Program-made: the position numbers and the translations under genes
Shown: positions 16,685 through 50,535 of the stretch, one piece after another
How the letters are laid out: every line of letters starts with the position of its first letter
Numbering within the stretch: the first letter of the stretch is position 1
Notes under the pieces: generated by a model
What the model was told of the DNA's origin: nothing
The model's database searches: none
What the model saw: only the letters and a program-made list of their open reading frames with translations
From: an uncultured Alphaproteobacteria bacterium
GTDB lineage: Bacteria; Pseudomonadota; Alphaproteobacteria; JAJFIK01
Length of the DNA: 59,702 nt
Reading direction: 5' to 3'
Assembly: GCA_964531285.1 (NCBI GenBank)
Contig: CAZHDI010000010.1
Coordinates: 1 to 59,702, forward strand

Positions 16685-16686
16685 TC

Positions 16687-17934: not shown

Positions 17935-17960
17935 GCCTGGAAAATGAGGAGATTTGACGA

Positions 17961-18293: not shown

Positions 18294-18314
18294 TCCTTCA
18301 GCAGAGAGAGTGTC

Positions 18315-19505: not shown

Positions 19506-19506
19506 G

Positions 19507-22313: not shown

Positions 22314-22315
22314 CA

Positions 22316-23644: not shown

Positions 23645-23656
23645 AGGATAGCGCGG

Positions 23657-26546: not shown

Positions 26547-28578
26547 TGGCGTACTGATTGTCCTGACCTGGCTTTTCGTTTCGATGCCATGGTCCGGTTC
26601 GCTGTCTTGGGCGCGGACGGACGCTTATCTCGATGTCTTGCGTCAGGGGGTGGTGCTGTCACAAGTCGGCCGGTGGGAGCAGGCCGCTGATCATTGGGCA
26701 AAGGGCCGGACCGCGCTCGATGCGACGGAAGGAATGTCGGATCAGGATCTGGCGCTGCTTGGCATTCTCCAGGCAATGGCTCTTGAGAAGACAGGCAATG
26801 CTCAGGCCTACGAGGTCTGGACGGATGCCCTGGCGGCCTTTCTGAAAGCGGGAACGCGATGGGAGGATTTTCGCGCCACGCTGGCAGGTCACTTGCGCGG
26901 AATGCAAATTTCGCGCGGATCCACCTTCTCGACTGAGGGCGTCATTACCGCCGATCAGAAGCCCGGTGACTTAATCCTTTCAAGCTTGGATTCCCTTCTT
27001 CAGTTCACGACTTATGACGGGCCAGCCCCGGGGCTTCAGCCGGTTCAACATCGCGTGGAAGAGCCTCTGACGGTTGCCCGATCGTATTTTCCGAGACCAC
27101 CCGCTATCTTGGCTGAGGACAATTCCACGGGCCCCAGGGGGCGGACCATCAGCGCTCCACAGGCTGGCGAGGGCGAGCGGTCGTCATCGAGAGTGATGCG
27201 CGGCGTACCCGAGATAGGGCCGGATGAGCTGAGTTCTGATCCAACGCAAAATCAATCGAAAACGGACGAATTTTCAGCAGGGTCGGGGGCACTCAATGGC
27301 GAGAGCGCCTTCAGTATGCGTTTCCCACCGGCGAGAAGCGGGGCCGAGGGTCCATCCGGGATGCTTTCGGGACCGACGCTAAGCCGTCGCCTCGATCGTC
27401 GTTCAGCCGGTGCTTTGAGCGAGGCTGATCGGGACGCCGCACGCCGGGCCTGGCGGTATATCGTAATGAACCGTCAGTCGAACACGGGGCTCGTGAACTC
27501 GGTTCAGACGTATCCCTATACGACCATGTGGGATCTGGGCAGCAGCATTGCGGCGATCGTCAGTGCTTTCCGGATTGGGATCATTGATGAGTGGGTGGTC
27601 GAAGACTATCTCGATAGAATGCTCCGCACATTAAGCGACATACCGCTTTATGACGGTGTCCTTCCGAACAGGGAATACGATACGCGTTCGGCGATGATGA
27701 CCGACCTGCGCAATCGGCAATCGTCCGTCGGCAGCGGGTATTCGTCCATCGATGTGGCGAGGCTATTGGTCTGGCTGGCTGTCATCAAGGAGCATTTTGA
27801 CACTTTTGCCGAACGGGTTGAGTCCATCGTGAGCCGATGGGATCTGACGCGCGTACATGACGGCGACGAATTTTACCGGGAGCTTCTCACGGCGGAAGGC
27901 ATCGACCGCAAGCAGGAAGGCCGGATGGGATATGAGCAGTATACGGCTCTTGCGTTTGCCCATTGGGGGATCGTTGTCCCTGGTGCGCATGACACTATGG
28001 AGTCGCGAACCGTGCGCCTCCACGATATTCCGATTCTCAAGGATACCCGGACGCCGAACCACCTCAATCTGGAACCGTTCCTGCTGGCCTTGATGGAGTT
28101 CGAAACACGGATGCCCGTGGTCGAAACACAGGCGGCGCGTCTGCTTGCGGCGCATGTAAAGCGGTACGAAGATACCGGCATTCTGTCCCTGTATACGGAG
28201 GATTCCATCGATCAAGCGCCGTGGTTTCTGTACAACACGGTCCTCGCAGATGCAGGGCCCTGGCGCTGCTTGACCTCCGCCGGGAAAGAGGCCGACCGGT
28301 GTCAAAGGCTGTCGACAAAGGCGGCGTTTGCGGCAGAGGCAGTCTTCGATTTGGACTACACGCGCATCGCCCGGCAACAGGTCATCGAGGGTGTGGATAT
28401 GCGCCGGGGCTATTATGCGGGCATCTATGAAGACGGAACGATGAACCGTGTTTTGACGGTCAATACCAATGCCATCATTCTCGAAGCGCTCGCTTTCAAA
28501 GCAGGTGGATCGAGGGCGTTCCTCGCCAATGCGTATGCGGATCCTGGCACAGCGACGGGCAGCCGTGCAGCGCGCTGA
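26539..28578 (+). CDS. DUF3131-like protein, paralogue 4, with N-terminal helical (TPR-like) region and low-complexity linker
   Basis: Signal peptide (SGSLSWA), ~130 aa helical region, ~150 aa Pro/Ser/Gly-rich linker. Then AWRYIVMN...TGLVNSVQTYPYTTMWDLGSS ... QEGRMGYEQYTA ... APWFLYNTVL. ATG overlaps the previous stop (ATGCGTAA). Confidence 0.75.
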   Translation: MRNGVLIVLTWLFVSMPWSGSLSWARTDAYLDVLRQGVVLSQVGRWEQAADHWAKGRTALDATEGMSDQDLALLGILQAMALEKTGNAQAYEVWTDALAAFLKAGTRWEDFRATLAGHLRGMQISRGSTFSTEGVITADQKPGDLILSSLDSLLQFTTYDGPAPGLQPVQHRVEEPLTVARSYFPRPPAILAEDNSTGPRGRTISAPQAGEGERSSSRVMRGVPEIGPDELSSDPTQNQSKTDEFSAGSGALNGESAFSMRFPPARSGAEGPSGMLSGPTLSRRLDRRSAGALSEADRDAARRAWRYIVMNRQSNTGLVNSVQTYPYTTMWDLGSSIAAIVSAFRIGIIDEWVVEDYLDRMLRTLSDIPLYDGVLPNREYDTRSAMMTDLRNRQSSVGSGYSSIDVARLLVWLAVIKEHFDTFAERVESIVSRWDLTRVHDGDEFYRELLTAEGIDRKQEGRMGYEQYTALAFAHWGIVVPGAHDTMESRTVRLHDIPILKDTRTPNHLNLEPFLLALMEFETRMPVVETQAARLLAAHVKRYEDTGILSLYTEDSIDQAPWFLYNTVLADAGPWRCLTSAGKEADRCQRLSTKAAFAAEAVFDLDYTRIARQQVIEGVDMRRGYYAGIYEDGTMNRVLTVNTNAIILEALAFKAGGSRAFLANAYADPGTATGSRAAR

Positions 28579-38743: not shown

Positions 38744-39051
38744 GTGACCGGCTGTCAGCGCGTCCCCCGTGCGTGAAGGCCCTCTAAACAATTGCCAGTC
38801 GTTTAACAGTTTGGTGATTTCCAAGCTGGGGTCTCCCGGTTTGCGTGCACACGCGCCGGGACGGGTCGGCACGCCGTTCGTCCGCACAGCAAAGCCCAGA
38901 TGACCGCGTCCGGGCCGGGGGTCATCCACGCGGCCTCTCGGCTGTGCTCAGGACGATGGCCATGTGCGTCGCGGCCCTCCGAAATTCGCTCCTAAGCCTG
39001 CCATGGGCCGGTCGTGTCCCAAGCATCGGGGCGGAACATCCAACGAGGGGG

Positions 39052-39969
39052 ATGGAGAGTATGACTGCACTATCGAAACATTTGCTGGGCACCGTGGCGG
39101 GGGCGATCGCCCTCGGTGCGGCGGCGTCCTTGTCGGCGGCGGATGCCCGGCCGATGGATTATGACGCCTCCGGCAGTGGGTTCTTCGTCAATACCGACGG
39201 CGACGTGGTGACCAATCATCATGTGATCGACGGCTGTACGCGGGTGCGTCTGGCGGTCGGCACTCAGATCACGGGCGGGCGCGTGCTGGCGTCCTCTCCG
39301 GTCAACGATCTGGCCGTGGTGCGCGCCGACAATCCGTCCGCTCTGGTAAGCGCGAGCCGGACCCCAGAGACCCCGGCTCCAACTGCGGCACGGGTCCAGT
39401 CCGCGCCGCGTCCGTCCGGCGGTATGGTCGCGATTACGGGCGACAACGATTATCAGTATGGCAACAGTTATCGGGACGAGCGCCCGGGCGGGTCCTACGG
39501 GTCCGGCAGTACCGGAGCGGCTGCCGCTTCCGGCGGTTTGAAGCCTTATGCGGTCTTTCGGGCCGGTCGGCTCACCCAGGGTGAACCGGCGATTGCGCTT
39601 GGTTATCCGTATGCGCCGGCTTTATCGGACCAAGTGAAGATCACCTCCGGGCTGGTCTCAAGCACCGCTGGCTTGCTTAACGACACGACGCGGTTTCAGG
39701 TGTCGACCCCCATCAATCCGGGAAACAGCGGCGGTCCGATCTACGGCAAGGACGGTCTGGTGATCGGGGCATCGGTCTCGGGGCTGAACAACGAAGTCTT
39801 CTCGGCCACCCAGAACAATAATTTCGGGATCAAGACGACCACGATCCTCCAATTCCTGGGCGATCACGGCATCCGGTATCACACCGCAAATGGCGGCACG
39901 GACGTTTCGACCGAAGATCTGTTGAAAACGGCCGGACCGACCACGGTGCATATTTTGTGCAACCAGTGA
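39052..39969 (+). CDS. secreted trypsin-like (S1/S1C) serine protease with low-complexity insert
   Basis: Signal peptide. His in VVTNHHVIDG, Asp in NDLAVVRAD, Ser in NPGNSGGPIY. An alternative ATG exists at 39061. Confidence 0.8.
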   Translation: MESMTALSKHLLGTVAGAIALGAAASLSAADARPMDYDASGSGFFVNTDGDVVTNHHVIDGCTRVRLAVGTQITGGRVLASSPVNDLAVVRADNPSALVSASRTPETPAPTAARVQSAPRPSGGMVAITGDNDYQYGNSYRDERPGGSYGSGSTGAAAASGGLKPYAVFRAGRLTQGEPAIALGYPYAPALSDQVKITSGLVSSTAGLLNDTTRFQVSTPINPGNSGGPIYGKDGLVIGASVSGLNNEVFSATQNNNFGIKTTTILQFLGDHGIRYHTANGGTDVSTEDLLKTAGPTTVHILCNQ

Positions 39970-39998
39970 CCGGCCGGAGTGTGTGGGGAGATCGGGCC

Positions 39999-41396
39999 AT
40001 GATCATCCGGATCGTGATGAGTATCCTGCTCATGCTTGGCGGCGTGGCCGGCGCGGGAACCGCCTGGGCCGCCGACGGGCACGACCGGGCGGAGACGCTC
40101 GTGGTGTGGGGCCATTGGGGATATCTCAAGCGCGATGCCCAGGCCAGCCTGGCGGCCATCCTTGATGCTGGACGCGGCACGGCGCTTGGACGGGAACGCG
40201 ATGCGCTTGCTTCGTTTTCCGATGATTTGGTGAGCCGGCCAGCGGTCGGTCAGGTGCTGAACCAGTGGTCGAGCCATCCTCTGGTGCGCGGCGAGTCCGA
40301 TGTGGCCGCCGCTTATCAGCGGGCTCACGGGCGCCCCGCGCAACCGAAGCATCTGGAGAATCCGGAACGGTATTTCGACCGGGCCTATGCGCTCATTCTG
40401 ATTGGCGGGTTCGAGGATCACTCGCCACTCAAGACCTCGGTTGATATCCGCGGGCAGGTGGTCGATCTGCACCATGATTATTTCACCGCGACCGTGACCG
40501 CCGTTCTCTTCGACCTGAAATCCGATGAGATCGTCCTGTCGGCCACGGCAACGACCGTGCGGCCCGTCAAGGAGCAGGACCGGCCCGTCACCGGTCCGGT
40601 GCGGATTGCCGGATTCTTCCGGGAGGCCTATCAGGGCGCGGCCGACAAAGCGCTCACGCGTCTGACCCGGATTATGGGCCAGACCGCGCCGGATACCGTG
40701 GCGGACCGGTTCGACACCTATATGGTGACCAGCGTGGATATGGCGCCAGCGACGGGGCGCGAAGGCCTTATCAATCCGCGTGCGGTGTTCCAGTTCGATG
40801 GTTACAATGCGCAGGACGATGACTTTTGCCCGCGCCAGGCCCTGTGCCGGAACCGGGATCCAGCTTGCAAATCCTTCGTCAGCATGATGGCCAACGGTGT
40901 CACCAGCGCCTTGTCCCAGGCCGGTCATTTGACCATGCCGCCCTGGGGCGTTTCGGACTGGCGGGCGCGGAGCAATCACAAGATTTCCGTCTCGCTGGCC
41001 TTGCCGCAATTCGATTCGCCGATGGCCAAGCGGGCGCTTGAGTTCACCATCGATCCGCGAAAGGCCCGCTACAAGGTGCGCGCCCGCCTTGACGGCATCA
41101 CCCTGCGCCAGCCCGACAGCGGGTCGCGCTATGTCACCCACAACCGCTATTTTGCGCTTGTCAGCCATACGGCCACCAAGACGCGGATGTCGGCGGACGG
41201 CGCGGCCTGTATTCCGCGCGGTGACCCGGTGGAGGCCGCCGGCGCGGATTTCGTTGGTGTTTATGCGGACAATCCGCCGAGCCATCTGCCGCCGGTCACC
41301 GGCAAAATGGAACGGATGTTCTATTTTGCCGCCATCAACTGTTCCCTGCGCAAGCACGGCGATCCCAATGAGGTGTGCGATGCCCGGCAAAACTGA
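39999..41396 (+). CDS. secreted hypothetical protein
   Basis: Signal peptide (GAGTAWA), protein-like composition, RBS GGGGAG. The long antisense ORF is Arg-rich. Confidence 0.6.
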   Translation: MIIRIVMSILLMLGGVAGAGTAWAADGHDRAETLVVWGHWGYLKRDAQASLAAILDAGRGTALGRERDALASFSDDLVSRPAVGQVLNQWSSHPLVRGESDVAAAYQRAHGRPAQPKHLENPERYFDRAYALILIGGFEDHSPLKTSVDIRGQVVDLHHDYFTATVTAVLFDLKSDEIVLSATATTVRPVKEQDRPVTGPVRIAGFFREAYQGAADKALTRLTRIMGQTAPDTVADRFDTYMVTSVDMAPATGREGLINPRAVFQFDGYNAQDDDFCPRQALCRNRDPACKSFVSMMANGVTSALSQAGHLTMPPWGVSDWRARSNHKISVSLALPQFDSPMAKRALEFTIDPRKARYKVRARLDGITLRQPDSGSRYVTHNRYFALVSHTATKTRMSADGAACIPRGDPVEAAGADFVGVYADNPPSHLPPVTGKMERMFYFAAINCSLRKHGDPNEVCDARQN

Positions 41397-42327
41397 CCGT
41401 TTTATATCCCGTCTTGTCATCGGCGCGGGGCTTTTGATCGGTGCCCTGGTACCGGCGAGCGCTTTGGCGCACAAACATGAGATCATGGTGACGCTGCCGC
41501 CTTCGGGTGATGCTGCGGCTTGTGAGCGCGCCGCGGAGAAAGCGGCGGGGCGCGATGCGGTGGCACAGTCCGTCGCCTGGATCGACGATGCGTACACGAA
41601 CACTGCCAAGATGCAGGCCATGGCCGGGCGGTTCGTCGAGCGGACCATTGTCGAGACGGTCGATGCCTCGGCGGGCGCCTGCTCGGCAACCGTCCTGGTG
41701 CAGATCGACGGCGCGGAATTGGAAGATGCGATGGTCGATGCGGTCGATGTTGGCGGCCGCGACATCGGCATTCTGGTGCACTTTTCGCGGGACGGGGAAC
41801 CGGTGAGCCTGGGCGCCAGCGATGTCTATCTCCCGACCGTGGCGTTCCAGGATGCGCTGGCCCAGACGGGGTTCGAGACCATTCCTTTGGGCGAGATGCA
41901 CAAGGGCTTTCAGTCCATGCAGGATGCCAAGCGCTGTGCTGTCACCGGCGGTGACTTCAAGTTCTGCTACGAGGATCAGGGCCTTGTGGACAGCGTGCTC
42001 GATCTGTTGGACGGGCTGCGGCAGGCCTATCGGGATGCCGGCAACCCGAACATGACCTTCGATACCGCGCCGAAATTCATTCGGCTTTGGAAGGGCAATC
42101 TCGTGGCCGTCGGTACGCTGAGCACCGTCTTGTCGCCGGACGGTTATGCAATGACCGGCACCGCGGCGATCGAGTTTTACTCGGTCAAGGATTCCGGCGC
42201 GGCCGCCGCTCCCTTCGAAAAGCAGTTCAAGATCAATGTTCACGGCGCGCGCGCGGATGCCGAGCGGGCGGTGATCAACAAGCTTGGCGATGCGCTGGCC
42301 CGGCATGCCGCCCAAAATCTGCCCTGA
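41380..42327 (+). CDS. secreted hypothetical protein (two alpha/beta modules)
   Basis: Signal peptide (VPASALA). The start overlaps the previous gene by 17 nt. The track ORF (41038) N-terminus is out of phase with the upstream gene. Confidence 0.6.
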   Translation: MPGKTDRFISRLVIGAGLLIGALVPASALAHKHEIMVTLPPSGDAAACERAAEKAAGRDAVAQSVAWIDDAYTNTAKMQAMAGRFVERTIVETVDASAGACSATVLVQIDGAELEDAMVDAVDVGGRDIGILVHFSRDGEPVSLGASDVYLPTVAFQDALAQTGFETIPLGEMHKGFQSMQDAKRCAVTGGDFKFCYEDQGLVDSVLDLLDGLRQAYRDAGNPNMTFDTAPKFIRLWKGNLVAVGTLSTVLSPDGYAMTGTAAIEFYSVKDSGAAAAPFEKQFKINVHGARADAERAVINKLGDALARHAAQNLP

Positions 42328-42396
42328 TCCGGCAATGGGGCGAAAAGAAGGTCACGGATCTTCGATTTCTTTCACATCCAATCAACGGGGGATGAG

Positions 42397-43338
42397 ATGA
42401 CACAGTTCCGCACCACGACACTCGCCGGGCTCGCGACCGCTGCCGTCCTGGCGTTCGGCACGCTGACCGCCGCACCGGCGCCGGCCCAGGCCAACATGTT
42501 CGGCAAGCTGTTCGCCGGCATGGCCGATGGCATGGAAGAACACGGACCGTGCCTGGCGTTCGGCGACAAACAGATGGATTTTGGGAATTCCCATCAGCGT
42601 GATGACGCCATGGGTCTGCTCAAGGGCTTCGGCGAGCAGTTGGCCGAGGGGGTTGTGAATGACGTCATTCGCGGCTTGGCCGGCAAGTCGCCCTATTGCC
42701 GGACGCAGGACCCGGTCGAAAAGATGATGCTGATGGGCGTCGCGATGGACAATGCGACGTTCCATATCGGCCAGGGTCTGGTCGATGCCGAGTCGGCGCT
42801 GGGGCTGAAAAGCGATCTCCACCGCCAGGTCGCCTCGTTCGACCGGGCGCGTAATGGTGCGACGCTGGCCGAGCAGTTGGGGACGTCGCGGCAGCAGATC
42901 ACCAGTTCCCTGTCCGATGGTGCGGCCAAGGTGTCGCTGGAAATCAAGCGTCTCCAGGCAAGCGGGGGGCTGACCCCGGAAATCCTGACGCGCCTGGATG
43001 CGGCCGACGCCAAGATGCAACGCGGGATTTACTACTACATGATGGCCGGCGCCGGGGCCTATGTGTTCCAGGATCAGCTCAAGAACAATCAGCGGGAGCT
43101 GACCAATGCGCTGCGCAGCTCCGGCCAGTCGGATCTGACACAGGATTTCCTGGTCAGCGTGCCCCGCCGGGCCCTGGCCATCTTCGGCAATCTCGATGGC
43201 GTGGGCGATGTGTCCGGCTCCATCCGGGAAGGCCGGTCGAAAAAAGAATTGAAGAAGCTCAAAAAGGCGACCAAGGCCCAGCACAAGGTGAGCCGCAAGG
43301 AGGCTCAGGAGATCGCTGAACTGTTCGGTCAGGTCTGA
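42397..43338 (+). CDS. secreted hypothetical helical protein with Lys-rich C-terminus
   Basis: Signal peptide (APAPAQA). Helical composition. KKELKKLKKATKAQHK tail. Confidence 0.6.
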   Translation: MTQFRTTTLAGLATAAVLAFGTLTAAPAPAQANMFGKLFAGMADGMEEHGPCLAFGDKQMDFGNSHQRDDAMGLLKGFGEQLAEGVVNDVIRGLAGKSPYCRTQDPVEKMMLMGVAMDNATFHIGQGLVDAESALGLKSDLHRQVASFDRARNGATLAEQLGTSRQQITSSLSDGAAKVSLEIKRLQASGGLTPEILTRLDAADAKMQRGIYYYMMAGAGAYVFQDQLKNNQRELTNALRSSGQSDLTQDFLVSVPRRALAIFGNLDGVGDVSGSIREGRSKKELKKLKKATKAQHKVSRKEAQEIAELFGQV

Positions 43339-43548: not shown

Positions 43549-44514
43549 ATGAAATCTCTTCTGACTGCGGCGGGTATCGCCGTTTCGGCCCTGGCCTGGG
43601 CCTTCACTGCCGCTCCGGCGGCTGCCTATAACGGCGAAGGCCTGTCGCTCGTCGTTCTCGCTGAAGATGCCGACCGTAATTCGGTGCGGGCCGACAGCGA
43701 TATCTTCCGCCGAGTCACCTCGGAGCTGCAACAGCAGTTCGCCGACTACGACTTCAATGTGATCGACGAGGAATTGTGGCTGGCGCGGATGCGCTGGACC
43801 CGCGACACCCGTCTGTCCAAGGGCGATCTGGCCGGACGCATCATGAATGCCTGTAATCAGGGCGACGACATCACCTGCCCGCGGGCGATGGCGGCCATCA
43901 AGATCCGGGCGTATGCGGAGGATCTGGGGTATGGCAGCCGGGCCCAGGTCCGGGTGATGGGCGATGTGCTCGATGCCGAGACCGGACAGTTCCTGGGCAG
44001 CTGGGAGCATCCGCTGATGGAATTCCCGGCGCCGCGCGGGTGCGACGGTGTGTGTATCGAGGAAATCATCGGCAAGAACGCCCGCGATATCGCGACTGTG
44101 CTGGGCGACACGCTCCGAGTGAAGCTTGCGGTCCTGGAGCGCGGCGAAGCGCGGCCGACGCATTCGGGCTACACCTCGGACGATGCTGGCCTCATCAACC
44201 GCTATCTCTTGACCTTCAAGAACTTCAGCCTGCGGGAATATCTGGCGATCGTCGATATGATGTCGTCGGACTTCCCCAAGGGGGTCGGGTTCGGCAAGCA
44301 GACCGGTGCGGTGCCGCTCATCAAGGTGAACTACAACACCCGGGCGAGCAATGAAGAGATCAACCGCTGGCTGAACATTCTCCTCCTGGAGATGGATTAC
44401 CCCGAGACCCACTTTAAGGTTCTCACCCAGCGCAATGGCCGTGAGATCCTGGTGGAAAAGGTCGTGGCCAACGCGCAAGGCCGGCGCAGCAACCCTAGCG
44501 ATCTGTATCACTGA
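43549..44514 (+). CDS. secreted hypothetical protein
   Basis: Signal peptide (TAAPAAA). Protein-like composition. Confidence 0.6.
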   Translation: MKSLLTAAGIAVSALAWAFTAAPAAAYNGEGLSLVVLAEDADRNSVRADSDIFRRVTSELQQQFADYDFNVIDEELWLARMRWTRDTRLSKGDLAGRIMNACNQGDDITCPRAMAAIKIRAYAEDLGYGSRAQVRVMGDVLDAETGQFLGSWEHPLMEFPAPRGCDGVCIEEIIGKNARDIATVLGDTLRVKLAVLERGEARPTHSGYTSDDAGLINRYLLTFKNFSLREYLAIVDMMSSDFPKGVGFGKQTGAVPLIKVNYNTRASNEEINRWLNILLLEMDYPETHFKVLTQRNGREILVEKVVANAQGRRSNPSDLYH

Positions 44515-44623: not shown

Positions 44624-44953
44624 ATGGCTCCCATCATCAGACTGCTCCTCGTTGGTTTTGCCGCCGTTTCCATCTCGGCTTGCGCCACCGCTCACGGCGA
44701 CGTCCCCAGCGACATCAGCCAATACGATCAGCCGCTGGGCGATGGTTACGGGGAGACCCGCTTTGTGGTCTCGCGTGATTTCAAACTGCGGACCTCGCCG
44801 AATGTGAATGCCCGCGTGATGGACCGGATCCCGGAATCGACCCGGCTGACCGCACGGGTCACACAGGTGGACGATGTCTGGTACCACATCGACATCACCG
44901 GCGGTCCCGATGGCTATATGTTCGGCTTGCCGCTTCAACACGATCCGTATTGA
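44624..44953 (+). CDS. small lipoprotein with bacterial SH3-like domain
   Basis: Lipobox ISAC. C-terminal LRTSPNVNARVMDRIPESTRLTARVTQVDDVWYHI resembles SH3b. ATG at 44624 is preceded by AAGGAG. Confidence 0.65.
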   Translation: MAPIIRLLLVGFAAVSISACATAHGDVPSDISQYDQPLGDGYGETRFVVSRDFKLRTSPNVNARVMDRIPESTRLTARVTQVDDVWYHIDITGGPDGYMFGLPLQHDPY

Positions 44954-45036
44954 TGCGCAAGGCCGGATCTTAGGGCGTTGACAAACCGAGCGTTTTAGCA
45001 AGATAGCCGAAGAAGCACGAAAACCCATCAGTACCC

Positions 45037-45146
45037 GTCATGCCCGCGGACGCGGGCATCCAGCACCGCACGGCACTCACTCCAAGCGGAGACCTGAAAC
45101 CGTCGCCCCTGGATGCCGGATCTGCGCTGCGCTTGTCCGGCATGAC
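45037..45146. repeat. MITE/REP-like intergenic element made of two hairpin modules
   Basis: GTCATGCCCGCG-ga-CGCGGGCATCCAG (45037-45063) and CTGGATGCCGGA...TCCGGCATGAC (45109-45146). The ends are mutually inverted. Resembles the widespread GTCAT[TG]CCCGCG...GGGA/CATCCAG alphaproteobacterial repeat family. Confidence 0.6.
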
Positions 45147-45181
45147 GACCTCTGGAGAAAATGACGTTCTCATCAGTCTGA

Positions 45182-45207
45182 GACCCGGCCCAGCCGGGTC
45201 TTTTTTT
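45182..45207 (+). terminator. Rho-independent terminator
   Basis: GACCCGGC-cca-GCCGGGTC followed by TTTTTTT. Confidence 0.8.
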
Positions 45208-45291
45208 ATGGCGTTTGAGCCGTACCGGGAAAATTTGGGCCTGATCCGTCCATACGCCGTTACAGCGGATCCATTTGAAGGGAACAGGGCG

Positions 45292-46257
45292 ATGATGAAC
45301 GGGATTTGGGTGCGGTGCGGCGTTTTCGCCGTTGGCTTTGCCGGCCTGACACTGCTGGCGATGGCGACGGCCATGGCGTCGCACGGGCCGCGCGTCGAAG
45401 TGCAATACAAGAAAACGGATATCAAGGAGATGGTCCGGGCCGAGGCGATGCGTCAGGGCACCGTTCCGATCGCGCTCGCGCTCGGCGTGGCCCGGGTGGA
45501 ATCCAATTTCAATGCCAACGCGCTGAGCTCAGCCGGCGCCCGCGGGGTGATGCAGATCATGCCGCGGACCGCGCGCACCGAATTCGGGGTCGATCCGGAC
45601 GATCTTTGGGACCCGGCGTTGAATATCCGCCTGGGGATCAGATTTCTGTCCCGCCTCTATGCCATCTACGGCAACCGGTGGGACGCGGCCCTGTCGCATT
45701 ACAATGGCGGAACCCTGGACGGCGATCCCTTGACCGCGCCGCCCCATGGCTACACCCGGGGGTATGTCGCGTCCGTGCTCAAATGGGCCGACCGCTATGA
45801 GGCCGAAACCGGCGTCGCGCTCGCGGGCGGTGAGCGCTACAGCGATCCGGCGCCCGTGACCGCCACGTCCGATGCCGCGCTTGCCGCGCGGTTCCGGGCC
45901 CGGCTTGATGCGCAAAACGGCAGCGCGCCGCAGCCCGTGTCCGAAACACAGGCGCCGGAGCCCCACGTAATCGACGTCGGCTCCGCGGTGACCGCTGCCG
46001 GTGTTGCGCCGGTCTGGGCATACCGGTCGACTGAACCGCGGATGACCCTCAATGCGGGCCCGGCGGCGGCGCAGCCCGCCTATCGGACGGCGCAAGTGGC
46101 GCCGCAGAACGCACAGGATTGGCGCGCGGCGCAGCCGGTCTCTGCCGCCGCCGTCTATCCCAATGACCCGGGGTCGTCCTTCGATCGGGTCGTGCGCCGC
46201 GACATGGGTGAATTGCGCGCCCGTTTCCGGGGCGCTATTCGTAGGGATCGCAACTGA
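45292..46257 (+). CDS. lytic transglycosylase (SLT domain) with Ala/Pro-rich C-terminal tail
   Basis: Signal anchor. ALGVARVESNFNANALSSAGARGVMQIMPRTA with the catalytic Glu. The track ORF N-terminus (45040-45291) is a translation of the repeat element. Confidence 0.85.
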   Translation: MMNGIWVRCGVFAVGFAGLTLLAMATAMASHGPRVEVQYKKTDIKEMVRAEAMRQGTVPIALALGVARVESNFNANALSSAGARGVMQIMPRTARTEFGVDPDDLWDPALNIRLGIRFLSRLYAIYGNRWDAALSHYNGGTLDGDPLTAPPHGYTRGYVASVLKWADRYEAETGVALAGGERYSDPAPVTATSDAALAARFRARLDAQNGSAPQPVSETQAPEPHVIDVGSAVTAAGVAPVWAYRSTEPRMTLNAGPAAAQPAYRTAQVAPQNAQDWRAAQPVSAAAVYPNDPGSSFDRVVRRDMGELRARFRGAIRRDRN

Positions 46258-46305
46258 GTGGAGACGGCGCGGCGGCGCTTTGGGCTGCGCGGGGGGCAGC
46301 AGGAC

Positions 46306-48000
46306 ATGGCGGACACGAGACCCGGAGTGCGCAAGCTTGTCGTGCTGTCCTTTCCGAAGGGCGAATTGCTCGATGCCCTGAAGCATCTGGAGATCGCCAG
46401 GACCCATCCCGGCGATGCGCCGCTGGTCTTCAAGCCCAAGACCATCCTGCGGATCACCCAGTTGCTGGTCGGCGGACCGGTGGATTTCGGGGTCTTGCGT
46501 CTGTGCCACTTTCTTGTGGCGGTGGCGGCCACCGATGAGGATCTGGGCAGCTTCCCCATGATGTTCCGGGGATCGCCGCGCGATGCGCGGGCGATCTTCA
46601 CCCGCGAGGCCCTGCAGCCCGTGATGGGTGCCCGCGTCAGTGCCTCCAAAGCGGGCATTGAACTGTCTTATCCAGACGGCGATTTTACCATCGATTACAG
46701 CGCCGTGCCGGAACTGCTGGCTCTGGCCGAGGTGCTGGCCAACGGCCTCGGCTATCACACGATCGGCGGGCTGATCGACGCGGTGCATGAGAGCCCGGTG
46801 TCGATGCAGCGGGTGAAAGACATCGCTCAATCGGTGATGCCGGAGTTCCGCACCTGGATCGAGCGCAATATGGCGGTGTCGCGCCAGAGCCGTCAAAAGT
46901 TCAAGAAGATGATCGATTTTCTGGAACGGTTCCGAGGTGCCGATTTCAGTACGGACGATATCGACGATGAAGCCGTTCTTGAGCTGTGGAAAGAGCATGC
47001 CGGCTCGGACGACGATTTCAAATTGTTCGGTACCGCGCTCGACAGTCTTCTGTTTCTCATCCGGCAGGCCCATGAGGGCCAGCGGCGCCTTGAGGAAGAT
47101 CGAATGGGCGGCCTCGATTTCGCTTACGAGGATGGCCGCTACACGATTGATCCGGGCTATGATCCTGAAGCCGACGATTTCGATACGTTCGCATCGTGGT
47201 TTGTCTTTATCAACGGGTCCGATGACGACGATGCGGATTTCGTCGCGCCGTTGAAAGATGCTGGCAATATTCTGTTCGCCAAGCAATGGGCCTGGCTGGA
47301 CCCTTATTGGCCCGCGCCGGACGGTCCGCATCTGATGCGCTCTCGCCTGCGGGCCGACGCCTTCGGAGCGCTTCAGCGGCGAATCGTTCAGGCACTGCGC
47401 CGCAATGCCAGCCGTACAGAGATCTGCGGGCTGATCGGCGTGGCGCCGGAGGAAACATATGATGTGATCGCCGGCCGGGCGGAAAAGGCGCATTCGGATA
47501 TTTGGACCGCGGCCCACGCGATCCTCCATGTCCTGATCGCGAGCGAACATGAAAATGCGCTGCATCTTCTGTACACGCTGCGTCAGCGGGATGTCGATCT
47601 GCGCAGTTTTGTCCAGACACTCGTTCTCGAAGATCTGGTCGACACCGAGGCCCTGGCCCGGGACGGGCTCGACGCGCTGGCCGATGCCTTTTTCGAGGCC
47701 CTGCGGCGCGGAGATATCACGCCCGATGACGTAGCGACGGTCGTGCGTCAGTCGGAGGGCTTCTGGCGTAAGCTTAAAGATCGGGCTGGTTTCAAGCCCG
47801 CCGAGATTGAAGACCCCGTCCGTGTGGAAAGCTTTGCCGAGGTGACGGGCGATTTGACGAAGGCCGTGACCCGGATCGGATCCGTGCGCACCATGATCGA
47901 TCGCGCGTGCCCGGCGGGGGAGCGGGAAAATCTGTTCAAATCCGACTATCAGAGTTTTGCGGGGCTGTTCCTGCGTCTCTATGTGGACGGTATTGAGTAG
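46306..48000 (+). CDS. hypothetical cytoplasmic protein (~565 aa, acidic, no recognisable motifs)
   Basis: Protein-like composition versus an Arg-rich 678-aa antisense ORF. An alternative GTG start at 46258 abuts the SLT stop. No Walker A motif seen. Confidence 0.65.
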   Translation: MADTRPGVRKLVVLSFPKGELLDALKHLEIARTHPGDAPLVFKPKTILRITQLLVGGPVDFGVLRLCHFLVAVAATDEDLGSFPMMFRGSPRDARAIFTREALQPVMGARVSASKAGIELSYPDGDFTIDYSAVPELLALAEVLANGLGYHTIGGLIDAVHESPVSMQRVKDIAQSVMPEFRTWIERNMAVSRQSRQKFKKMIDFLERFRGADFSTDDIDDEAVLELWKEHAGSDDDFKLFGTALDSLLFLIRQAHEGQRRLEEDRMGGLDFAYEDGRYTIDPGYDPEADDFDTFASWFVFINGSDDDDADFVAPLKDAGNILFAKQWAWLDPYWPAPDGPHLMRSRLRADAFGALQRRIVQALRRNASRTEICGLIGVAPEETYDVIAGRAEKAHSDIWTAAHAILHVLIASEHENALHLLYTLRQRDVDLRSFVQTLVLEDLVDTEALARDGLDALADAFFEALRRGDITPDDVATVVRQSEGFWRKLKDRAGFKPAEIEDPVRVESFAEVTGDLTKAVTRIGSVRTMIDRACPAGERENLFKSDYQSFAGLFLRLYVDGIE

Positions 48001-48015
48001 ACTGGAGGCATTGAC

Positions 48016-48576
48016 ATGGCGGTTACGTGGAGCAAGTTGCCCCCCCGCACGAGAACCGAGATCGAACAGGCATTCGGTGTTATGGACACCGCGAAGACCC
48101 TACTGGACGAGGTGAGCGCGATGGATGCGCCGTCGCGTCCGGGTATTCGCGATCTCTATCACTTTATGCTCCGCCCGCAGAGCGATGTGTCGGGCCGGGT
48201 CCAGCGTGCGCTGCGCGACGATCCGCGGGTGCAGCGGGATTTCGACAGCCTTCTGGAGCGCAATGGCGCCTTTGCGTTTCCGCAAGCCGCGGCGGCCAGT
48301 TCGACCCAGATCGAGGAACGCACCGACGTGGAAGGGTTGGCGCGGCTTCGGCTCCTGCCGTCGGATTCTCTGCCCGACGAGGCCTATCTGCTGATCGACC
48401 TCGATCCGTCGAACGGGCTGGAGCCGAAATGCCTCTATGTGAGCGGGACCGATGTCGGCTACATTGCGATACCGCTTGCGCCGCCGGAAAATGATACGAT
48501 CAGCATGATCCTGTCGTCGTCCAGCGACGAGGCGCGCGCGCTGTGGGACCCCAAGGCGAAGGTCCATCTGAAATAG
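48016..48576 (+). CDS. hypothetical protein (186 aa)
   Basis: RBS GGAGG. 15 nt after the upstream stop. Protein-like composition. Confidence 0.6.
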   Translation: MAVTWSKLPPRTRTEIEQAFGVMDTAKTLLDEVSAMDAPSRPGIRDLYHFMLRPQSDVSGRVQRALRDDPRVQRDFDSLLERNGAFAFPQAAAASSTQIEERTDVEGLARLRLLPSDSLPDEAYLLIDLDPSNGLEPKCLYVSGTDVGYIAIPLAPPENDTISMILSSSSDEARALWDPKAKVHLK

Positions 48577-48588
48577 ACGGTCGAGGCC

Positions 48589-49977
48589 ATGACGGATATT
48601 GCGGTCTATATTCCGACAACGAACGGGGCGAGCCAGGTCTTGAGTCTGACCAAGATCGGGCTCGATGGGTCGGACCGTGATTATCCGTCAATGATCGGCG
48701 TCAATCACACGACCCGGTCGATTTCCGGTTTACGGATTCGCTATGACGAGTTCGTCCGCGAGCCGACGGGCGTTATCGAGCGGCATACCGATCACCGGTC
48801 GTACCGGGTCGATGTGTCGGGCGATATCAGCCATGGCGACAGCTGGCAGCTCGGCTTGTTCATTGCTCATGCCCTGGCCGAAAGCGGTGCGGTCGGTCTT
48901 CAAGGCGATCGCGGGGAAAGTCTGACTCTCAAAGGCGGTCTTCACACCCGGTCCCAGAAGGCATCGGAAACCGCGCAGCAGGGCGAGGCCGGGATCGTCG
49001 TCTGGGCGACCGGGATCGTAACCTCCGGCCTTCATGTGCGCAGCGTCGGAGAAATCCTCTGTAAACTCGATCAGTCAGCGGATTTGTTTGAGGTAGCGCG
49101 TAAAGCAGGCGCCCGTGTTGTGTTTGCTCTGCCGGCGGAAAATCGTACGCCGGAGCTAGAAGCTTATTTCAAGACCCTGTCCGGTCATTTCTCAGAGTGC
49201 GATGTGGTTTTTGTCGATGACGTTGTTTTTGGCGAGCCTGCCGGTGGTGCGCAAACCGCGGTGACGGCGATGCCGTCCGCGGCATCTCCGGGCGCGCGCC
49301 CCGCCGCTGGTACGTCAGGTTTACCGATCAAAGCTGGCGCCATGGTGGCTGCAGGCGTTGCCGGGGCCGCGGTTCTGGCTTATGCGCTTTCGGGGCCGGA
49401 TGAAACAACGATGCCGGCCGCTGACGATCAGGCGGCGGCGGCATTCACGTCATCTGACCCTGTGCCGGAGCCCGCCGGCGGTTGGTCCCCGGCTCAAGCC
49501 GGCCGTTTGATCACCCATGTGGATGTGGATTTGCGGTTTCGCGATGATGTCTCCTTAAGCCTGCCGTGGGCCGGGGCGCCGTCGGCCGTCCTGCCGAGGG
49601 ATGCCGGGCGGATCGTGACCCATCGGGCGGGTGTCGATGTTGTGCTGGAAAATCCGAGTACGGAGCGCCTGGATGTTGCCTATGCGATCATTGACCAGCA
49701 ATCGGGGCTTTTGGCGTCCGGCCATGGTCAAGTTCAGCCGGTTGGCCGCTGGTCCGTGCCTTTGGAGGGCGACATAGGCGATCTTGAGGAGCGGGCTGTT
49801 TGGCTCTTTGCGGCGCCTCACCTGGCCGTGGATTTTTCCGAGGTCTTGGGAGGCGGTCTGTCGGACGGGACGGTTCGCGATATCCGGCAGTGGGCGGAGG
49901 ATCGCAATGTGGCGAGCTTCCGACTCGGCCGCAACACGCTGGCTGGCGATGTTCCGGCGACATCGTATACACCTTGA
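48589..49977 (+). CDS. bitopic membrane protein with N-terminal Lon-protease-like (S16-like) domain
   Basis: VDVSGDISHGDSWQLGLFIAHALA and VVWATGIVTSGLHVRSVGEILCKL...ARKAGARVVFALPAEN parallel the Lon GPSAG...MTGEI..G.V..IGG..EK...A...G...V.IP..N pattern. One TM helix (AGAMVAAGVAGAAVLAYAL). Confidence 0.55.
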   Translation: MTDIAVYIPTTNGASQVLSLTKIGLDGSDRDYPSMIGVNHTTRSISGLRIRYDEFVREPTGVIERHTDHRSYRVDVSGDISHGDSWQLGLFIAHALAESGAVGLQGDRGESLTLKGGLHTRSQKASETAQQGEAGIVVWATGIVTSGLHVRSVGEILCKLDQSADLFEVARKAGARVVFALPAENRTPELEAYFKTLSGHFSECDVVFVDDVVFGEPAGGAQTAVTAMPSAASPGARPAAGTSGLPIKAGAMVAAGVAGAAVLAYALSGPDETTMPAADDQAAAAFTSSDPVPEPAGGWSPAQAGRLITHVDVDLRFRDDVSLSLPWAGAPSAVLPRDAGRIVTHRAGVDVVLENPSTERLDVAYAIIDQQSGLLASGHGQVQPVGRWSVPLEGDIGDLEERAVWLFAAPHLAVDFSEVLGGGLSDGTVRDIRQWAEDRNVASFRLGRNTLAGDVPATSYTP

Positions 49978-49992
49978 CGGGGAGGACATGAG

Positions 49993-50535
49993 ATGAGCCT
50001 GCATCGGATCACATTACGCGCTAGGGGCGGCACTCTTGCCGCGGCCGTCGCGGTGCTGGTTGTTGCCGCGCCGGCGGGTGCAACAACAAGCGAGCGCTAT
50101 GACCGGGAGGGTTACATCTCGGCGTTGACGCCCATTACCGGCGACGAGACGCCGGCGAAGGTCGATCTCTATCTGACCTTCGCGTTCGGGTCTGCCGCAC
50201 TCACCGGCGACGCCCGGAACCAGCTTGACGTGCTGGCCGAGGCGATCCTGTCGGACGGCTTGCAGAGGGCGCGCTTCGGTCTCTACGGGCATACCGATGC
50301 CGTCGGTTCGGCGGCTTATAACGAGGATCTCTCAGCCCGCCGCGCCCGCGCCGTGCGGGATTATCTTGTTGGCCAAGGGGTCACGCCAGACCGGCTCGAT
50401 AGCCGTGGTTTCGGGGAAACCCGGCCGAAAAATCTGCTGGACCCTGAAGCCGCCGAGAACCGCCGGGTCGAGGTTGTCAATCTGACACCGCCGCCGGCGC
50501 CCGCCGGGTCTATGACGCCCATTACCGGCGATTGA
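49993..50535 (+). CDS. OmpA/MotB-family peptidoglycan-binding protein
   Basis: Signal peptide. FAFGSAALT ... GHTDAVGSAAYNEDLSARRARAV ... NRRVEV. Confidence 0.9.
   Translation: MSLHRITLRARGGTLAAAVAVLVVAAPAGATTSERYDREGYISALTPITGDETPAKVDLYLTFAFGSAALTGDARNQLDVLAEAILSDGLQRARFGLYGHTDAVGSAAYNEDLSARRARAVRDYLVGQGVTPDRLDSRGFGETRPKNLLDPEAAENRRVEVVNLTPPPAPAGSMTPITGD

What the first reader, a model, noticed from the sequence alone, without database searches (positions are those of the whole stretch)
45292..50535. SLT, two cytoplasmic unknowns, a Lon-like membrane protein and an OmpA-like protein: tightly coupled five-gene unit of unknown function
The unit starts just after a terminator and repeat element. 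The gene junctions are 0 nt (TGA-GTG at 46255-46260, or 48 nt if the ATG at 46306 is used), 15, 12 and 15 nt, each with a GGAGG-type RBS. The products span all compartments. There is a 565-aa acidic cytoplasmic protein with no NTPase motif and a 186-aa cytoplasmic protein. There is a bitopic inner-membrane protein with a cytoplasmic Ser-Lys protease-like domain and a ~190-aa periplasmic domain. There is also a periplasmic peptidoglycan-binding OmpA/MotB-like protein and a peptidoglycan-cutting SLT enzyme. A wall-anchored, wall-remodelling module joined to a regulated cytoplasmic protease is reminiscent of trans-envelope signalling or of conflict and defence-type systems. I cannot match it to a named system.
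Basis: partly seen in the sequence, partly recalled or inferred. Interest (0 to 1): 0.7.

Follow-up and report, generated by a model that had tools for sequence, protein, structure and literature searches.

The report
Membrane Lon-like protease signalling triad
The region holds a rare, uncharacterised three-gene module, conserved across about 35 loci, made of a membrane-anchored Lon-type protease with a periplasmic sensor-like domain, a small protein with an invariant alanine-rich motif, and a large protein whose predicted fold matches nothing known; it probably relays an envelope signal into the cell by cutting the small protein.

Summary
All five ORFs, their 12-48 nt junctions, the RBSs and the upstream terminator and hairpins are as described. 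The conserved unit is not five genes. It is a triad, H-I-J (46306-49977), contiguous and co-oriented in all 24 informative loci.

- The SLT gene precedes H in 12 of 24 loci.
- OmpA occurs in only 2 of 24.

J's N-terminal 210 residues model confidently as a Lon protease domain. Ser85 is invariant and Lys159 nearly so, and they align with E. coli Lon S679 and K722. There is no AAA+ module. One TM helix and a variable periplasmic domain follow.

I carries a nearly invariant P-x-(V/L)-A-A-A-(S/A) motif between two halves. It resembles the LAA|A site at which the Lon-type protease CalpL cuts CalpT.

H models at pLDDT 89 and pTM 0.86 but has no PDB, BFVD, Pfam, NCBIfam, PADLOC or PHROG match. One homolog is fused to a primase CHC2 zinc finger.

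Best reading (inferred): periplasmic sensing activates J, J cleaves I, and H is released. About eight relatives embed the triad in a roughly 15-gene envelope cluster that the window lacks. This is a new variant of sensor-protease signalling built from unnamed families.

The parts
43549..44514 (+). U321, a signal-peptide periplasmic two-domain protein.
   Evidence: Homologs lie directly upstream of SLT or H in L006, L008, L009, L017, L018, L021, L033 and L035, and its C-terminal domain alone in L019. It has no Pfam, NCBIfam or PDB sequence match.
44624..44953 (+). Small lipoprotein with a weak SH3_3 match. It is lineage-specific and sits where relatives carry X139.
   Evidence: Pfam SH3_3 at E 1.2e-4, below the curated cut-off. 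No homolog lies near any other triad.
45040..45143 (.). Two REP-like palindromic hairpins.
   Evidence: The pattern ATGCCSG..CSGGCAT is found twice here and nowhere else in the window, against 0.07 expected.
45180..45209 (+). Intrinsic-terminator-like hairpin with a T-run, separating U321/SH3 from SLT-H-I-J-OmpA.
   Evidence: A stem of 10 pairs, 7 of them G-C, followed by TTTTTAT.
45292..46257 (+). Membrane-anchored family-1 lytic transglycosylase (SLT) with an Ala/Pro-rich C-terminal tail.
   Evidence: Pfam SLT 1.1e-22 over residues 51-141. The ES, GVMQIM and YNGG motifs are visible in the translation. An SLT gene lies directly upstream of H in 12 of 24 loci.
46306..48000 (+). H, a 564-aa acidic cytoplasmic alpha-helical protein of unknown fold and the proposed output factor. 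An alternative GTG start lies at 46258.
   Evidence: AF2 gives pLDDT 88.8 and pTM 0.86. The best PDB Foldseek hit has E 0.42 and the best BFVD hit E 0.27. No Pfam hit in 67 members beyond one at E 0.0035. There are 273 representative homologs among 1.84 billion proteins.
48016..48576 (+). I, a 186-aa cytoplasmic two-part protein and the proposed protease substrate or anti-factor.
   Evidence: Present in every locus. No Pfam or PDB sequence match.
48280..48306 (+). Conserved P-x-(V/L)-A-A-A-(S/A)-(S/T)-G motif of I (PQAAAASST in the window), the candidate cleavage and degron site.
   Evidence: A92 is conserved in 31 of 32, A93 in 31 of 32 and A94 in 32 of 32 unique sequences, and R102 in 31 of 32. 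Translation was checked. It parallels the CalpT LAA|A site.
48589..49224 (+). Cytoplasmic Lon-fold (S16-like) protease domain of J. The Ser85 codon is 48841-48843 and the Lys159 codon is 49063-49065.
   Evidence: pLDDT is above 90 except for the 107-131 insertion. The top 14 Foldseek PDB hits are all Lon-family proteins, with E down to 1e-5. S85 is invariant and K159 is at least 90% conserved in 63 sequences. hhalign maps them to Lon S679 and K722. Codons were checked.
49321..49377 (+). Single transmembrane helix of J (residues about 245-263).
   Evidence: A hydropathy peak and an AF2 helix at 253-266. Arg and Lys precede it and acidic residues follow it, which places the N-terminus inside.
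49378..49977 (+). Periplasmic C-terminal domain of J, lineage-specific and the presumed sensor.
   Evidence: No homolog in other loci. The model is of low confidence here. Relatives carry FGE-sulfatase, DUF4384, a Cys-containing domain or Pro-rich spacers at this position.
49993..50535 (+). Secreted OmpA-like peptidoglycan-binding protein, an accessory that is not conserved with the triad.
   Evidence: Pfam OmpA 3.6e-21. It has a signal-peptide-like N-terminus and no MotB-type TM Asp. An OmpA gene lies near the triad only here and in L038.

Best explanation
The locus encodes a transmembrane proteolytic signalling module.

- J is a single-pass inner-membrane protein. Its cytoplasmic N-terminal domain is an AAA-less Lon-fold Ser-Lys protease, and its variable C-terminal domain faces the periplasm and acts as the sensor.
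- I is a small cytoplasmic two-domain protein. Its nearly invariant (V/L)AAA(S/A) linker is the site J cuts. The cut exposes an Ala-Ala C-terminal degron, as in CalpT and RseA, so that housekeeping proteases remove the N-terminal fragment.
- H is a 550-aa helical protein of an undescribed fold. It is the output factor held or silenced by I. Its action may be DNA-directed.
- The SLT enzyme, the periplasmic U321 protein, and the lineage-specific SH3 and OmpA proteins are wall-associated accessories. They place the sensor in, or feed it from, the peptidoglycan layer.

Shown: the gene anatomy, conservation of the triad, the Lon fold with a conserved Ser and Lys, the topology, the conserved Ala motif, and the absence of any known relative for H.

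Inferred: that J is active, that I is its substrate, that cleavage occurs at the Ala motif, that H is the output, and what the signal is.
For: - The triad H-I-J is contiguous, co-oriented and mostly overlapping by start and stop codons in 24 of 24 informative loci and in 11 shorter contigs.
- J's domain model has pLDDT above 90. Its top 14 PDB neighbours are all Lon proteolytic domains: LONP1 at E 1e-5, LonC, and CalpL at E 0.08.
- G-x-S85-W-Q is invariant, and T141-G142 and K159 are at least 90% conserved in 63 homologs.
- hhalign places S85 on Lon S679 and K159 on K722. A PDB profile search gives a weak, correctly registered hit to Lon protease 2.
- Topology: no signal peptide, one TM helix, and basic residues before it.
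- The C-terminal domain is swapped among relatives: FGE-sulfatase, DUF4384, a Cys-pair domain, Pro-rich spacers. The first two are named as accessory domains of orthocaspases and Ser/Thr kinases in papers listed.
- The I motif is the most conserved segment in 32 unique sequences.
- The Lon-type protease CalpL cuts its partner CalpT in LAA|A and exposes a degron that frees the partner sigma factor. RseA likewise exposes VAA (bioRxiv 10.1101/2024.05.08.593097).
- H: a confident model with no structural or sequence relative. One homolog carries an N-terminal CHC2 primase zinc finger at E 1.5e-35.
Against: - No experiment exists, and no complex prediction could be run.
- Sequence-level similarity of J to Lon is below significance (hhalign probability 11%; no Pfam Lon_C hit). 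The fold match has modest TM-scores (0.43-0.47 against isolated domains).
- The Ala motif could be structural or a binding site rather than a cleavage site.
- I shows no detectable similarity to CalpT or to anti-sigma factors, and H is not a sigma factor by Pfam.
- The DNA link for H rests on a single fusion protein.
- In about eight loci the triad lies in the middle of a large envelope gene cluster, so H-I-J could be structural parts of a machine rather than a signalling arm.
- The window's own periplasmic domain has no homologs and a poor model, so the signal is unknown.
Confidence: 0.45

Rival explanations
1. H-I-J are integral cytoplasmic and inner-membrane parts of an undescribed proton-motive-force-driven envelope-spanning machine. 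That machine would comprise a MotA/ExbB-like channel, an ExbD/MotB-like partner, TonB-like Pro-rich proteins, lipoproteins and a specialised SLT. J's protease would mature or quality-control components rather than signal. The window would carry a decayed remnant.
For: - In L006, L009, L017, L018, L033, L034, L035 and L038 the triad sits between U321-X139-SLT and a set of seven to eight conserved membrane or periplasmic genes.
- F202 hits five ZorA (MotA/ExbB/TolQ) models at E 0.002-0.013.
- X139 has a TM segment with a conserved Glu. d223 and d368 consist of a TM segment followed by a Pro-rich region.
- X139 accompanies SLT in 11 of 12 SLT-bearing loci.
Against: - The triad stands alone, with none of these genes, in at least 10 loci: the Nisaea species, L005, L014, L020, L022, L023, L029 and L039. 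It therefore functions without the machine.
- hhalign of F202 and X139 against E. coli TolQ, ExbB, TolR and ExbD is not significant.
- No ATPase or known secretion component is present.
Confidence: 0.2
2. The triad is an anti-phage or abortive-infection system. J senses envelope damage or phage entry, cleaves I, and frees H as a toxic effector.
For: - Distribution is rare and patchy: 18 of 185,579 species genomes by a pattern-limited scan.
- One copy is in a gammaproteobacterial MAG with a PIN-like gene inserted, and one is a decaying copy next to a transposase.
- The sensor domains are variable.
- It shares its logic with CalpL-CalpT-CalpS and has a MotA-like neighbour reminiscent of Zorya.
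Against: - No PADLOC hit for H, I, J or any cluster protein except generic OmpA and MotA-like similarity.
- No relative in 2.9 million viral contigs.
- The neighbours are metabolic genes, and flanking synteny (arginase, DUF1194, TusA) is conserved across Nisaea and Thalassobaculaceae. That argues for vertical inheritance rather than a defence island.
- H has no recognisable toxin or nuclease features.
Confidence: 0.2
3. J's Lon-like domain is a non-catalytic scaffold (a pseudo-protease), and the triad is a structural or regulatory complex that works without proteolysis.
For: Other Lon-fold domains have lost activity (RadA/Sms, from general knowledge). Purified YlbL/DdcP lacking its TM segment showed no activity in vitro (PMC6051672). 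The signature here is GDSWQL, not the canonical GPSAG.
Against: Ser85 is invariant and Lys159 is at least 90% conserved at the positions of the Lon dyad across 63 sequences that are otherwise only 21-37% identical to the window protein. That is hard to explain without catalysis.
Confidence: 0.1
4. The five genes are neighbours by accident, with no functional link.
For: OmpA, the SH3 protein and J's C-terminal domain have no counterpart next to the triad in other loci, apart from an OmpA gene at a different position in L038.
Against: H-I-J is conserved in 24 of 24 loci and SLT in 12 of 24, across Rhodospirillales, a Hyphomicrobiales MAG and a Moraxellaceae MAG.
Confidence: 0.03

Closest known systems
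CalpL-CalpT-CalpS (type III CRISPR-associated SAVED-Lon protease, anti-sigma factor and ECF-like sigma factor)
   Same: Both are three-gene modules built around an AAA-less Lon-fold Ser-Lys protease fused to a sensor domain. CalpL is among J's structural neighbours (7qda). CalpL cuts its small partner in an Ala-rich LAA|A motif, which exposes a C-degron and frees the third protein. I carries a nearly invariant (V/L)AAA(S/A) motif.
   Different: J's sensor is periplasmic and lies behind a TM helix. It is not a cytoplasmic cA4-binding SAVED domain. No CRISPR genes were seen. I has no detectable similarity to CalpT, and H is a 550-aa protein of unknown fold, not a sigma factor.
BlaR1/MecR1-BlaI/MecI sensor-protease signalling (general knowledge)
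   Same: Both have an extracytoplasmic sensor domain coupled across the membrane to a cytoplasmic protease domain that cleaves a cytoplasmic regulator.
   Different: BlaR1 is a multi-pass zinc metalloprotease with a penicillin-binding sensor, and its substrate is a winged-helix repressor. There is no sequence or fold relation to J, I or H.
YlbL/DdcP of Bacillus subtilis (membrane-anchored Lon-domain protease without AAA+)
   Same: Both combine a TM anchor with a Lon peptidase domain, lack an ATPase module, and act on a specific partner protein (PMC6051672).
   Different: YlbL has an N-terminal anchor, an extracellular Lon domain and a PDZ domain. J's protease is cytoplasmic, its anchor is central, and it has no PDZ domain.
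RseA/sigma-E regulated proteolysis and FecR-type trans-envelope signalling (general knowledge; the RseA degron is cited)
   Same: An envelope signal is converted by site-specific cleavage into an exposed VAA-type degron on a cytoplasmic anti-factor fragment.
   Different: Those systems use DegS/RseP or Prc/RseP and a membrane-spanning anti-sigma factor. Here the protease is itself the membrane-spanning sensor and the putative substrate is soluble.
Canonical Lon proteases (LonA, LonB, LonC; MEROPS S16)
   Same: The proteolytic-domain fold and the Ser-Lys dyad positions match.
   Different: J has no AAA+ or N-domain, no Pfam Lon_C hit, a GDSWQL signature instead of GPSAG, and a 16-residue insertion before the Ser. 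The window copy has a further 25-residue insertion after it.

Membership tests
Lon protease family (MEROPS S16) | Lon proteolytic-domain fold | tested here: met
   An AF2 model with pLDDT above 90 over residues 1-210. Its top 14 Foldseek PDB hits are all Lon-family proteins, with E from 1e-5 to 0.08.
Lon protease family (MEROPS S16) | Catalytic Ser-Lys dyad at the canonical positions | tested here: met
   S85 is invariant and K159 is at least 90% conserved. They align to E. coli Lon S679 and K722, although the alignment alone is not statistically significant.
Lon protease family (MEROPS S16) | AAA+ ATPase module fused to the protease | tested here: not met
   No Walker A motif, no AAA Pfam hit, and the protease domain starts at residue 1.
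Lon protease family (MEROPS S16) | Match to curated sequence models (Pfam Lon_C or NCBIfam) | tested here: not met
   No family at E of 0.1 or better.
CalpL-CalpT-CalpS | SAVED cyclic-oligoadenylate sensor fused to the Lon domain | tested here: not met
   No Pfam hit. J continues into a TM helix and a periplasmic domain.
CalpL-CalpT-CalpS | Anti-sigma and ECF-sigma partner pair | tested here: not met
   No Sigma70 or anti-sigma Pfam match in 67 H or 16 I family members.
CalpL-CalpT-CalpS | Ala-rich cleavage motif in the small partner | tested here: inconclusive
   The motif is present and nearly invariant, but cleavage has not been tested.
CalpL-CalpT-CalpS | Association with a type III CRISPR-Cas locus | tested here: not met
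   No cas-related Pfam domain among the window genes scanned or among the genes called in L003, L005, L033, L034, L038 and L039.
Zorya (ZorA/ZorB-based defence) | ZorA (MotA-like protein with a long tail), ZorB, and ZorC/D/E effector genes | tested here: not met
   In the window only the OmpA domain gives weak ZorB hits (E 2e-6 to 0.01). There are no ZorA, ZorC, ZorD or ZorE hits. In relatives a 202-aa protein hits ZorA models weakly, but no other Zor protein is found.
Secretion-system or flagellar specialised lytic transglycosylases (VirB1, IagB, FlgJ-type) | An SLT encoded within a recognisable T3SS, T4SS, flagellar or pilus gene cluster | tested here: not met
   The SLT domain is present. 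NCBIfam hits to IagB and the flagellar LT fall far below their cut-offs. No secretion or flagellar genes lie in the window or the related loci.
OmpA/MotB family | OmpA-like peptidoglycan-binding domain | tested here: met
   Pfam OmpA 3.6e-21, above the cut-off.
OmpA/MotB family | MotB-type N-terminal TM helix with a conserved Asp, paired with a MotA gene | tested here: not met
   The N-terminus looks like a cleavable signal peptide without an acidic residue. No MotA-like ORF is present in the window.
Ton/Tol-type energy-transducing systems (related loci only) | ExbB/TolQ-like and ExbD/TolR-like pair plus a TonB/TolA-like protein | tested here: inconclusive
   F202 gives weak ZorA/MotA/ExbB model hits. 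hhalign against E. coli TolQ, ExbB, TolR and ExbD is not significant. Pro-rich TM proteins were identified by eye. These genes are absent from the window.

The most novel reading that the evidence does not exclude
H-I-J is the cytoplasmic arm of a previously undescribed trans-envelope apparatus of Rhodospirillales-type bacteria. That apparatus would comprise a specialised SLT, a MotA/ExbB-like channel with an ExbD-like partner, TonB-like spacers and lipoproteins. A membrane-embedded Lon-type protease would convert an envelope or peptidoglycan event into site-specific cleavage of I, releasing H. H would be the founding member of a new protein fold that acts on DNA. This would be a new route from the cell wall to the chromosome that uses no kinase, sigma factor or second messenger.
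Probability: 0.2. Interest if true: 0.8.

Novelty: new variant of a known kind. Interest (0 to 1): 0.62.

Why it matters
If the model holds, it adds a second, independent example of an AAA-less Lon-fold protease used as a site-specific signalling switch. The first is CalpL. This one is wired to a periplasmic sensor rather than to a CRISPR second messenger. That would suggest the 'Lon cut exposes an Ala-Ala degron' logic is a general bacterial device.

It also defines three protein families, H, I and J, that no curated library covers. H has a confident model without structural relatives. The work points to a roughly 15-gene envelope cluster of wholly unknown function in cultured marine alphaproteobacteria (Thalassobaculum, strain BAL199), where it can be tested genetically.

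Tried and rejected
- Pfam, NCBIfam, PADLOC and PDB sequence searches of H, I and J as single sequences gave nothing.
- Profile searches against PDB sequences for H, I and U321 gave nothing significant.
- PHROGs gave nothing for H or the cluster proteins.
- A word-indexed homolog search with H alone found only H itself.
- The 63-sequence J alignment was too diverse for pattern scanning. The 3-sequence alignment found only 8 JGI metagenome loci and none in viral contigs.
- hhalign of the cluster proteins F202 and X139 against E. coli TolQ, ExbB, TolR and ExbD was not significant, although it aligned the expected motifs.
The source organism remains unidentified.
- Literature searches for a membrane Lon-like signalling or defence system with these partners found no description.
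- A sigma/anti-sigma identity for H and I was considered and rejected because there are no Pfam matches.
- Membership of Zorya, BREX-BrxL, T3SS or T4SS accessory genes was rejected.

Full report
**Observation.** The five + strand ORFs exist as stated. They are SLT 45292-46257, H 46306-48000 (an in-frame GTG at 46258 abuts the SLT stop), I 48016-48576, J 48589-49977 and OmpA 49993-50535.

The junctions were read from the sequence. The gap before the H ATG is 48 nt, or 0 nt if the GTG is used. The other gaps are 15, 12 and 15 nt, with GGAGG or GAGG upstream of I, J and OmpA. Sixty-six H homologs align from the ATG-encoded N-terminus, so 46306 is the likelier start.

A strong terminator-like hairpin lies upstream at 45180-45202 (10 pairs plus a T-run). 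Two related palindromic hairpins lie at 45040-45059 and 45113-45143 and are unique in the window.

Pfam confirms SLT (1e-22) and OmpA (4e-21). H is acidic (pI 4.96) and has no Walker A motif. I has pI 4.8. J has a single hydrophobic span at residues 245-263.

**No library covers H, I or J.** Pfam, NCBIfam, PADLOC, PHROGs and PDB sequences all return nothing. This holds for single sequences and for family members or profiles.

**Family sizes.**
- J alone found two distant relatives among 5.8 billion proteins. A three-sequence profile of its N-terminal domain found 77, all labelled hypothetical and mostly alphaproteobacterial (Nisaea, Kiloniellales and Hyphomicrobiales MAGs).
- An exhaustive phmmer search of H against 1.84 billion representatives found 273 proteins at E up to 1e-3. 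Nearly all are about 540-560 aa and only 22-34% identical to the window protein.
- A pattern-limited scan found J relatives in 18 of 185,579 species genomes. These are Thalassobaculum, Nisaea, strain BAL199, Rhodospirillaceae and other alphaproteobacterial MAGs, and one Moraxellaceae MAG.
- The same scan found 8 JGI metagenome contigs and no viral contigs.

**The conserved unit.** I searched six-frame ORFs of all fetched loci with iterated profiles of the window proteins and of the cluster proteins.
- H-I-J is contiguous, in that order and on one strand, in all 24 non-redundant loci with enough flanking DNA. Eleven shorter contigs are consistent with this. In most relatives the stops and starts overlap.
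- An SLT gene lies directly upstream of H in 12 of 24 loci.
It has homologs at the same upstream position in 10 of 24 loci.
- An OmpA-family gene is near the triad only in the window and in L038, where it sits upstream.
- The SH3-like lipoprotein (44624-44953), J's periplasmic domain, and the trypsin-like and secreted genes at 38845-43338 have no counterparts near other triads.

**J.** A 63-sequence alignment gave an AlphaFold2 model with pLDDT above 90 for residues 1-210. The exception is a window-specific 25-residue insertion at 107-131. The TM helix is modelled, but the periplasmic domain has low confidence.

Foldseek against the PDB returned Lon proteolytic domains as its top 14 hits. These include human LONP1 at E 1e-5, Yersinia Lon, LonC, and the CRISPR protease CalpL at E 0.08. 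Nothing else was significant. TM-scores against isolated Lon domains are 0.43-0.47.

G83, S85, W86 and Q87 are invariant. H94, T141, G142 and K159 are at least 90% conserved. The codons were checked.

hhalign against E. coli Lon 585-784 aligns WATGxV...K159 with AMTGEI...K722 and ALPxxN with LIPFEN (probability 11%). In global mode it aligns GDS85 with GPS679. A PDB profile search gives a weak, correctly registered hit to 'Lon protease 2' (E 0.85).

J is therefore an AAA-less Lon-fold domain with the dyad residues conserved. It is not a canonical Lon.

There is no signal peptide, basic residues precede the TM helix and acidic residues follow it. This places the protease in the cytoplasm and the C-terminal domain in the periplasm.

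That C-terminal domain is swapped among relatives. Variants include FGE-sulfatase, DUF4384, a Cys-pair domain, Pro-rich spacers, and in some loci a separate ORF. FGE-sulfatase and DUF4384 are named as accessory domains of orthocaspases and Ser/Thr kinases in papers listed. This swapping is what one expects of a sensor module.

**I.** Thirty-two unique sequences share little apart from a central P-x-(V/L)-A-A-A-(S/A)-(S/T)-G...R segment. A92 and A93 are conserved in 31 of 32, A94 in 32 of 32 and R102 in 31 of 32. The window reads PQAAAASST. By sequence character, the segment lies between a helix-like N-half and a strand-like C-half.

The only biochemically dissected AAA-less Lon-type signalling protease is CalpL. 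It cuts its partner CalpT in the motif LAAA between A204 and A205. This exposes an LAA-type C-degron that leads to degradation of the fragment and release of the sigma factor CalpS. The authors compare this with the VAA degron of RseA (bioRxiv 10.1101/2024.05.08.593097).

That parallel is the basis for proposing that I is J's substrate and that the Ala motif is both cut site and degron. This is an inference, not a result.

**H.** A 67-sequence alignment gave a model with mean pLDDT 88.8 and pTM 0.86. It is mostly helical, with two small sheets. Foldseek found no credible neighbour in the PDB (best E 0.42, probability 0.08) or in BFVD (best E 0.27). No AlphaFold DB library was available.

Invariant or nearly invariant positions include W228, R349, G495, D547 and several arginines. 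No catalytic signature is evident.

One homolog, P0093 in L038, carries an N-terminal primase-type CHC2 zinc finger (PF01807, E 1.5e-35). The H profile gives a non-significant hit to a DnaD-like protein (E 0.54). Together these give a weak hint that H acts on DNA.

**A larger context in relatives.** The triad lies within a co-oriented cluster in L006, L009, L017, L018, L033, L034, L035 and L038, and in part in L007, L011 and L021. The order is U321, X139, SLT, H, I, J, then d191, d298, d128, F202, d223, d368 and d216.
- X139 is a 139-aa protein whose TM segment carries a conserved Glu.
- d191 and d216 are lipoproteins, and d298 is a periplasmic coiled-coil protein.
- F202 is a 3-4-TM protein that hits five ZorA (MotA/ExbB/TolQ) models at E 0.002-0.013. 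It is not significant against E. coli TolQ or ExbB by hhalign.
- d223 and d368 have a TM segment followed by a Pro-rich, TonB-like region.

None of these proteins has a Pfam or NCBIfam match. The window has none of them. It is also the only SLT-bearing locus without X139. The SH3 lipoprotein, the hairpins and the terminator occupy that position instead, which suggests a remodelled, reduced locus.

At least ten loci carry the bare triad. These are the Nisaea species, L005, L014, L020, L022, L023, L029 and L039. H-I-J is therefore a self-sufficient module that is often, but not always, coupled to the envelope cluster.

**Interpretation.** The best-supported model is a sensor-protease relay.
1. 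The periplasmic domain of J senses an event. It may be helped by wall-associated accessories: SLT, U321, and PG-binding proteins that vary by lineage (SH3 and OmpA here, PG_binding_1 in L033).
2. The cytoplasmic Lon-fold domain of J cleaves I at the Ala motif.
3. The degron-tagged fragment is removed, and H is freed to act.

My confidence is about 0.85 that J is a membrane-anchored Lon-fold protein with a conserved dyad and that H-I-J is a functional module. It is about 0.45 for the full relay.

The rivals are these:
- H-I-J are parts of an undescribed proton-motive-force-driven envelope machine (0.2).
- The triad is an abortive-infection or defence system (0.2). Rarity, horizontal transfer and the CalpL and Zorya analogies favour this. 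The absence of PADLOC hits and viral copies, and the housekeeping synteny conserved across Nisaea and Thalassobaculaceae, argue against it.
- J is a pseudo-protease scaffold (0.1).

**Comparison and novelty.** The module works most like CalpL-CalpT-CalpS and, in topology, like BlaR1-BlaI. It fails the defining features of both families: no SAVED domain, no sigma/anti-sigma pair, no CRISPR association and no metalloprotease.

It shares the AAA-less, membrane-anchored Lon design with B. subtilis YlbL/DdcP (PMC6051672). The orientation is opposite, however, and J has no PDZ domain.

I found no description of it in the searchable literature.

I rate it a new variant of a known kind, namely regulated-proteolysis signalling, built from three unnamed families, one of which has no detectable structural relative. 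The organism of origin could not be identified.

Noticed in passing
L033:1747-13300, L034:3241-13793, L038:1-14100; also L006, L009, L017, L018, L035: A co-oriented cluster of about 15 genes surrounds the triad in these relatives. It holds U321, X139, SLT and H-I-J, followed by lipoproteins, a coiled-coil periplasmic protein, a weakly MotA/ExbB/ZorA-like membrane protein and two TonB-like Pro-rich proteins. Apart from SLT, H-I-J and the U321 protein, the window holds none of these genes. Almost none has a Pfam or NCBIfam match. It may be an undescribed envelope apparatus.
   Followed up: partly
L038:6001-8100 (protein P0093): This H homolog is fused at its N-terminus to a primase-type CHC2 zinc finger (PF01807, E 1.5e-35). 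It is the only domain clue to H's function. The same locus has an OmpA gene and a DUF4384 protein at the cluster edge, and partial duplicates of three cluster genes.
   Followed up: partly
window 48907-48981 (J residues 107-131): The window's J carries a 25-residue insertion between the putative catalytic Ser and Lys. No other family member has it, and it is modelled with pLDDT below 50.
   Followed up: no
window 44624-45209: The window is the only SLT-bearing locus without the X139 gene. An SH3-like lipoprotein gene, two REP-like hairpins and a terminator occupy that position, which suggests local remodelling.
   Followed up: partly
window 38845-43338: A co-oriented run comprises a trypsin-like peptidase (Trypsin_2), a 479-aa unknown, a probable lipoprotein and a secreted 313-aa protein. 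None has a homolog near any other triad, and their relation to the system is unknown.
   Followed up: partly
window 20472-28578: A GT2 glycosyltransferase gene is followed by four tandem DUF3131 paralogs with E values from 1e-102 to 1e-146. This looks like a glycan-related gene family expansion.
   Followed up: no
window 16666-19974: A response-regulator/PP2C (SpoIIE) phosphatase gene lies near an HATPase_c_2 anti-sigma-kinase-like gene, which suggests a partner-switching module. Glycogen synthase and phosphorylase genes lie nearby.
   Followed up: no
L021:6374-6766: In the Moraxellaceae MAG a 130-aa ORF lies between SLT and H; by eye its sequence resembles PIN/VapC toxins (no profile search was run). 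The cluster genes F202 and d368 lie upstream rather than downstream. The copy appears rearranged and probably horizontally acquired.
   Followed up: no
L005:7663-12672: H and J are each split into two ORFs, and a DDE_3 transposase lies immediately downstream of the FGE-sulfatase fragment. This looks like a decaying copy.
   Followed up: no
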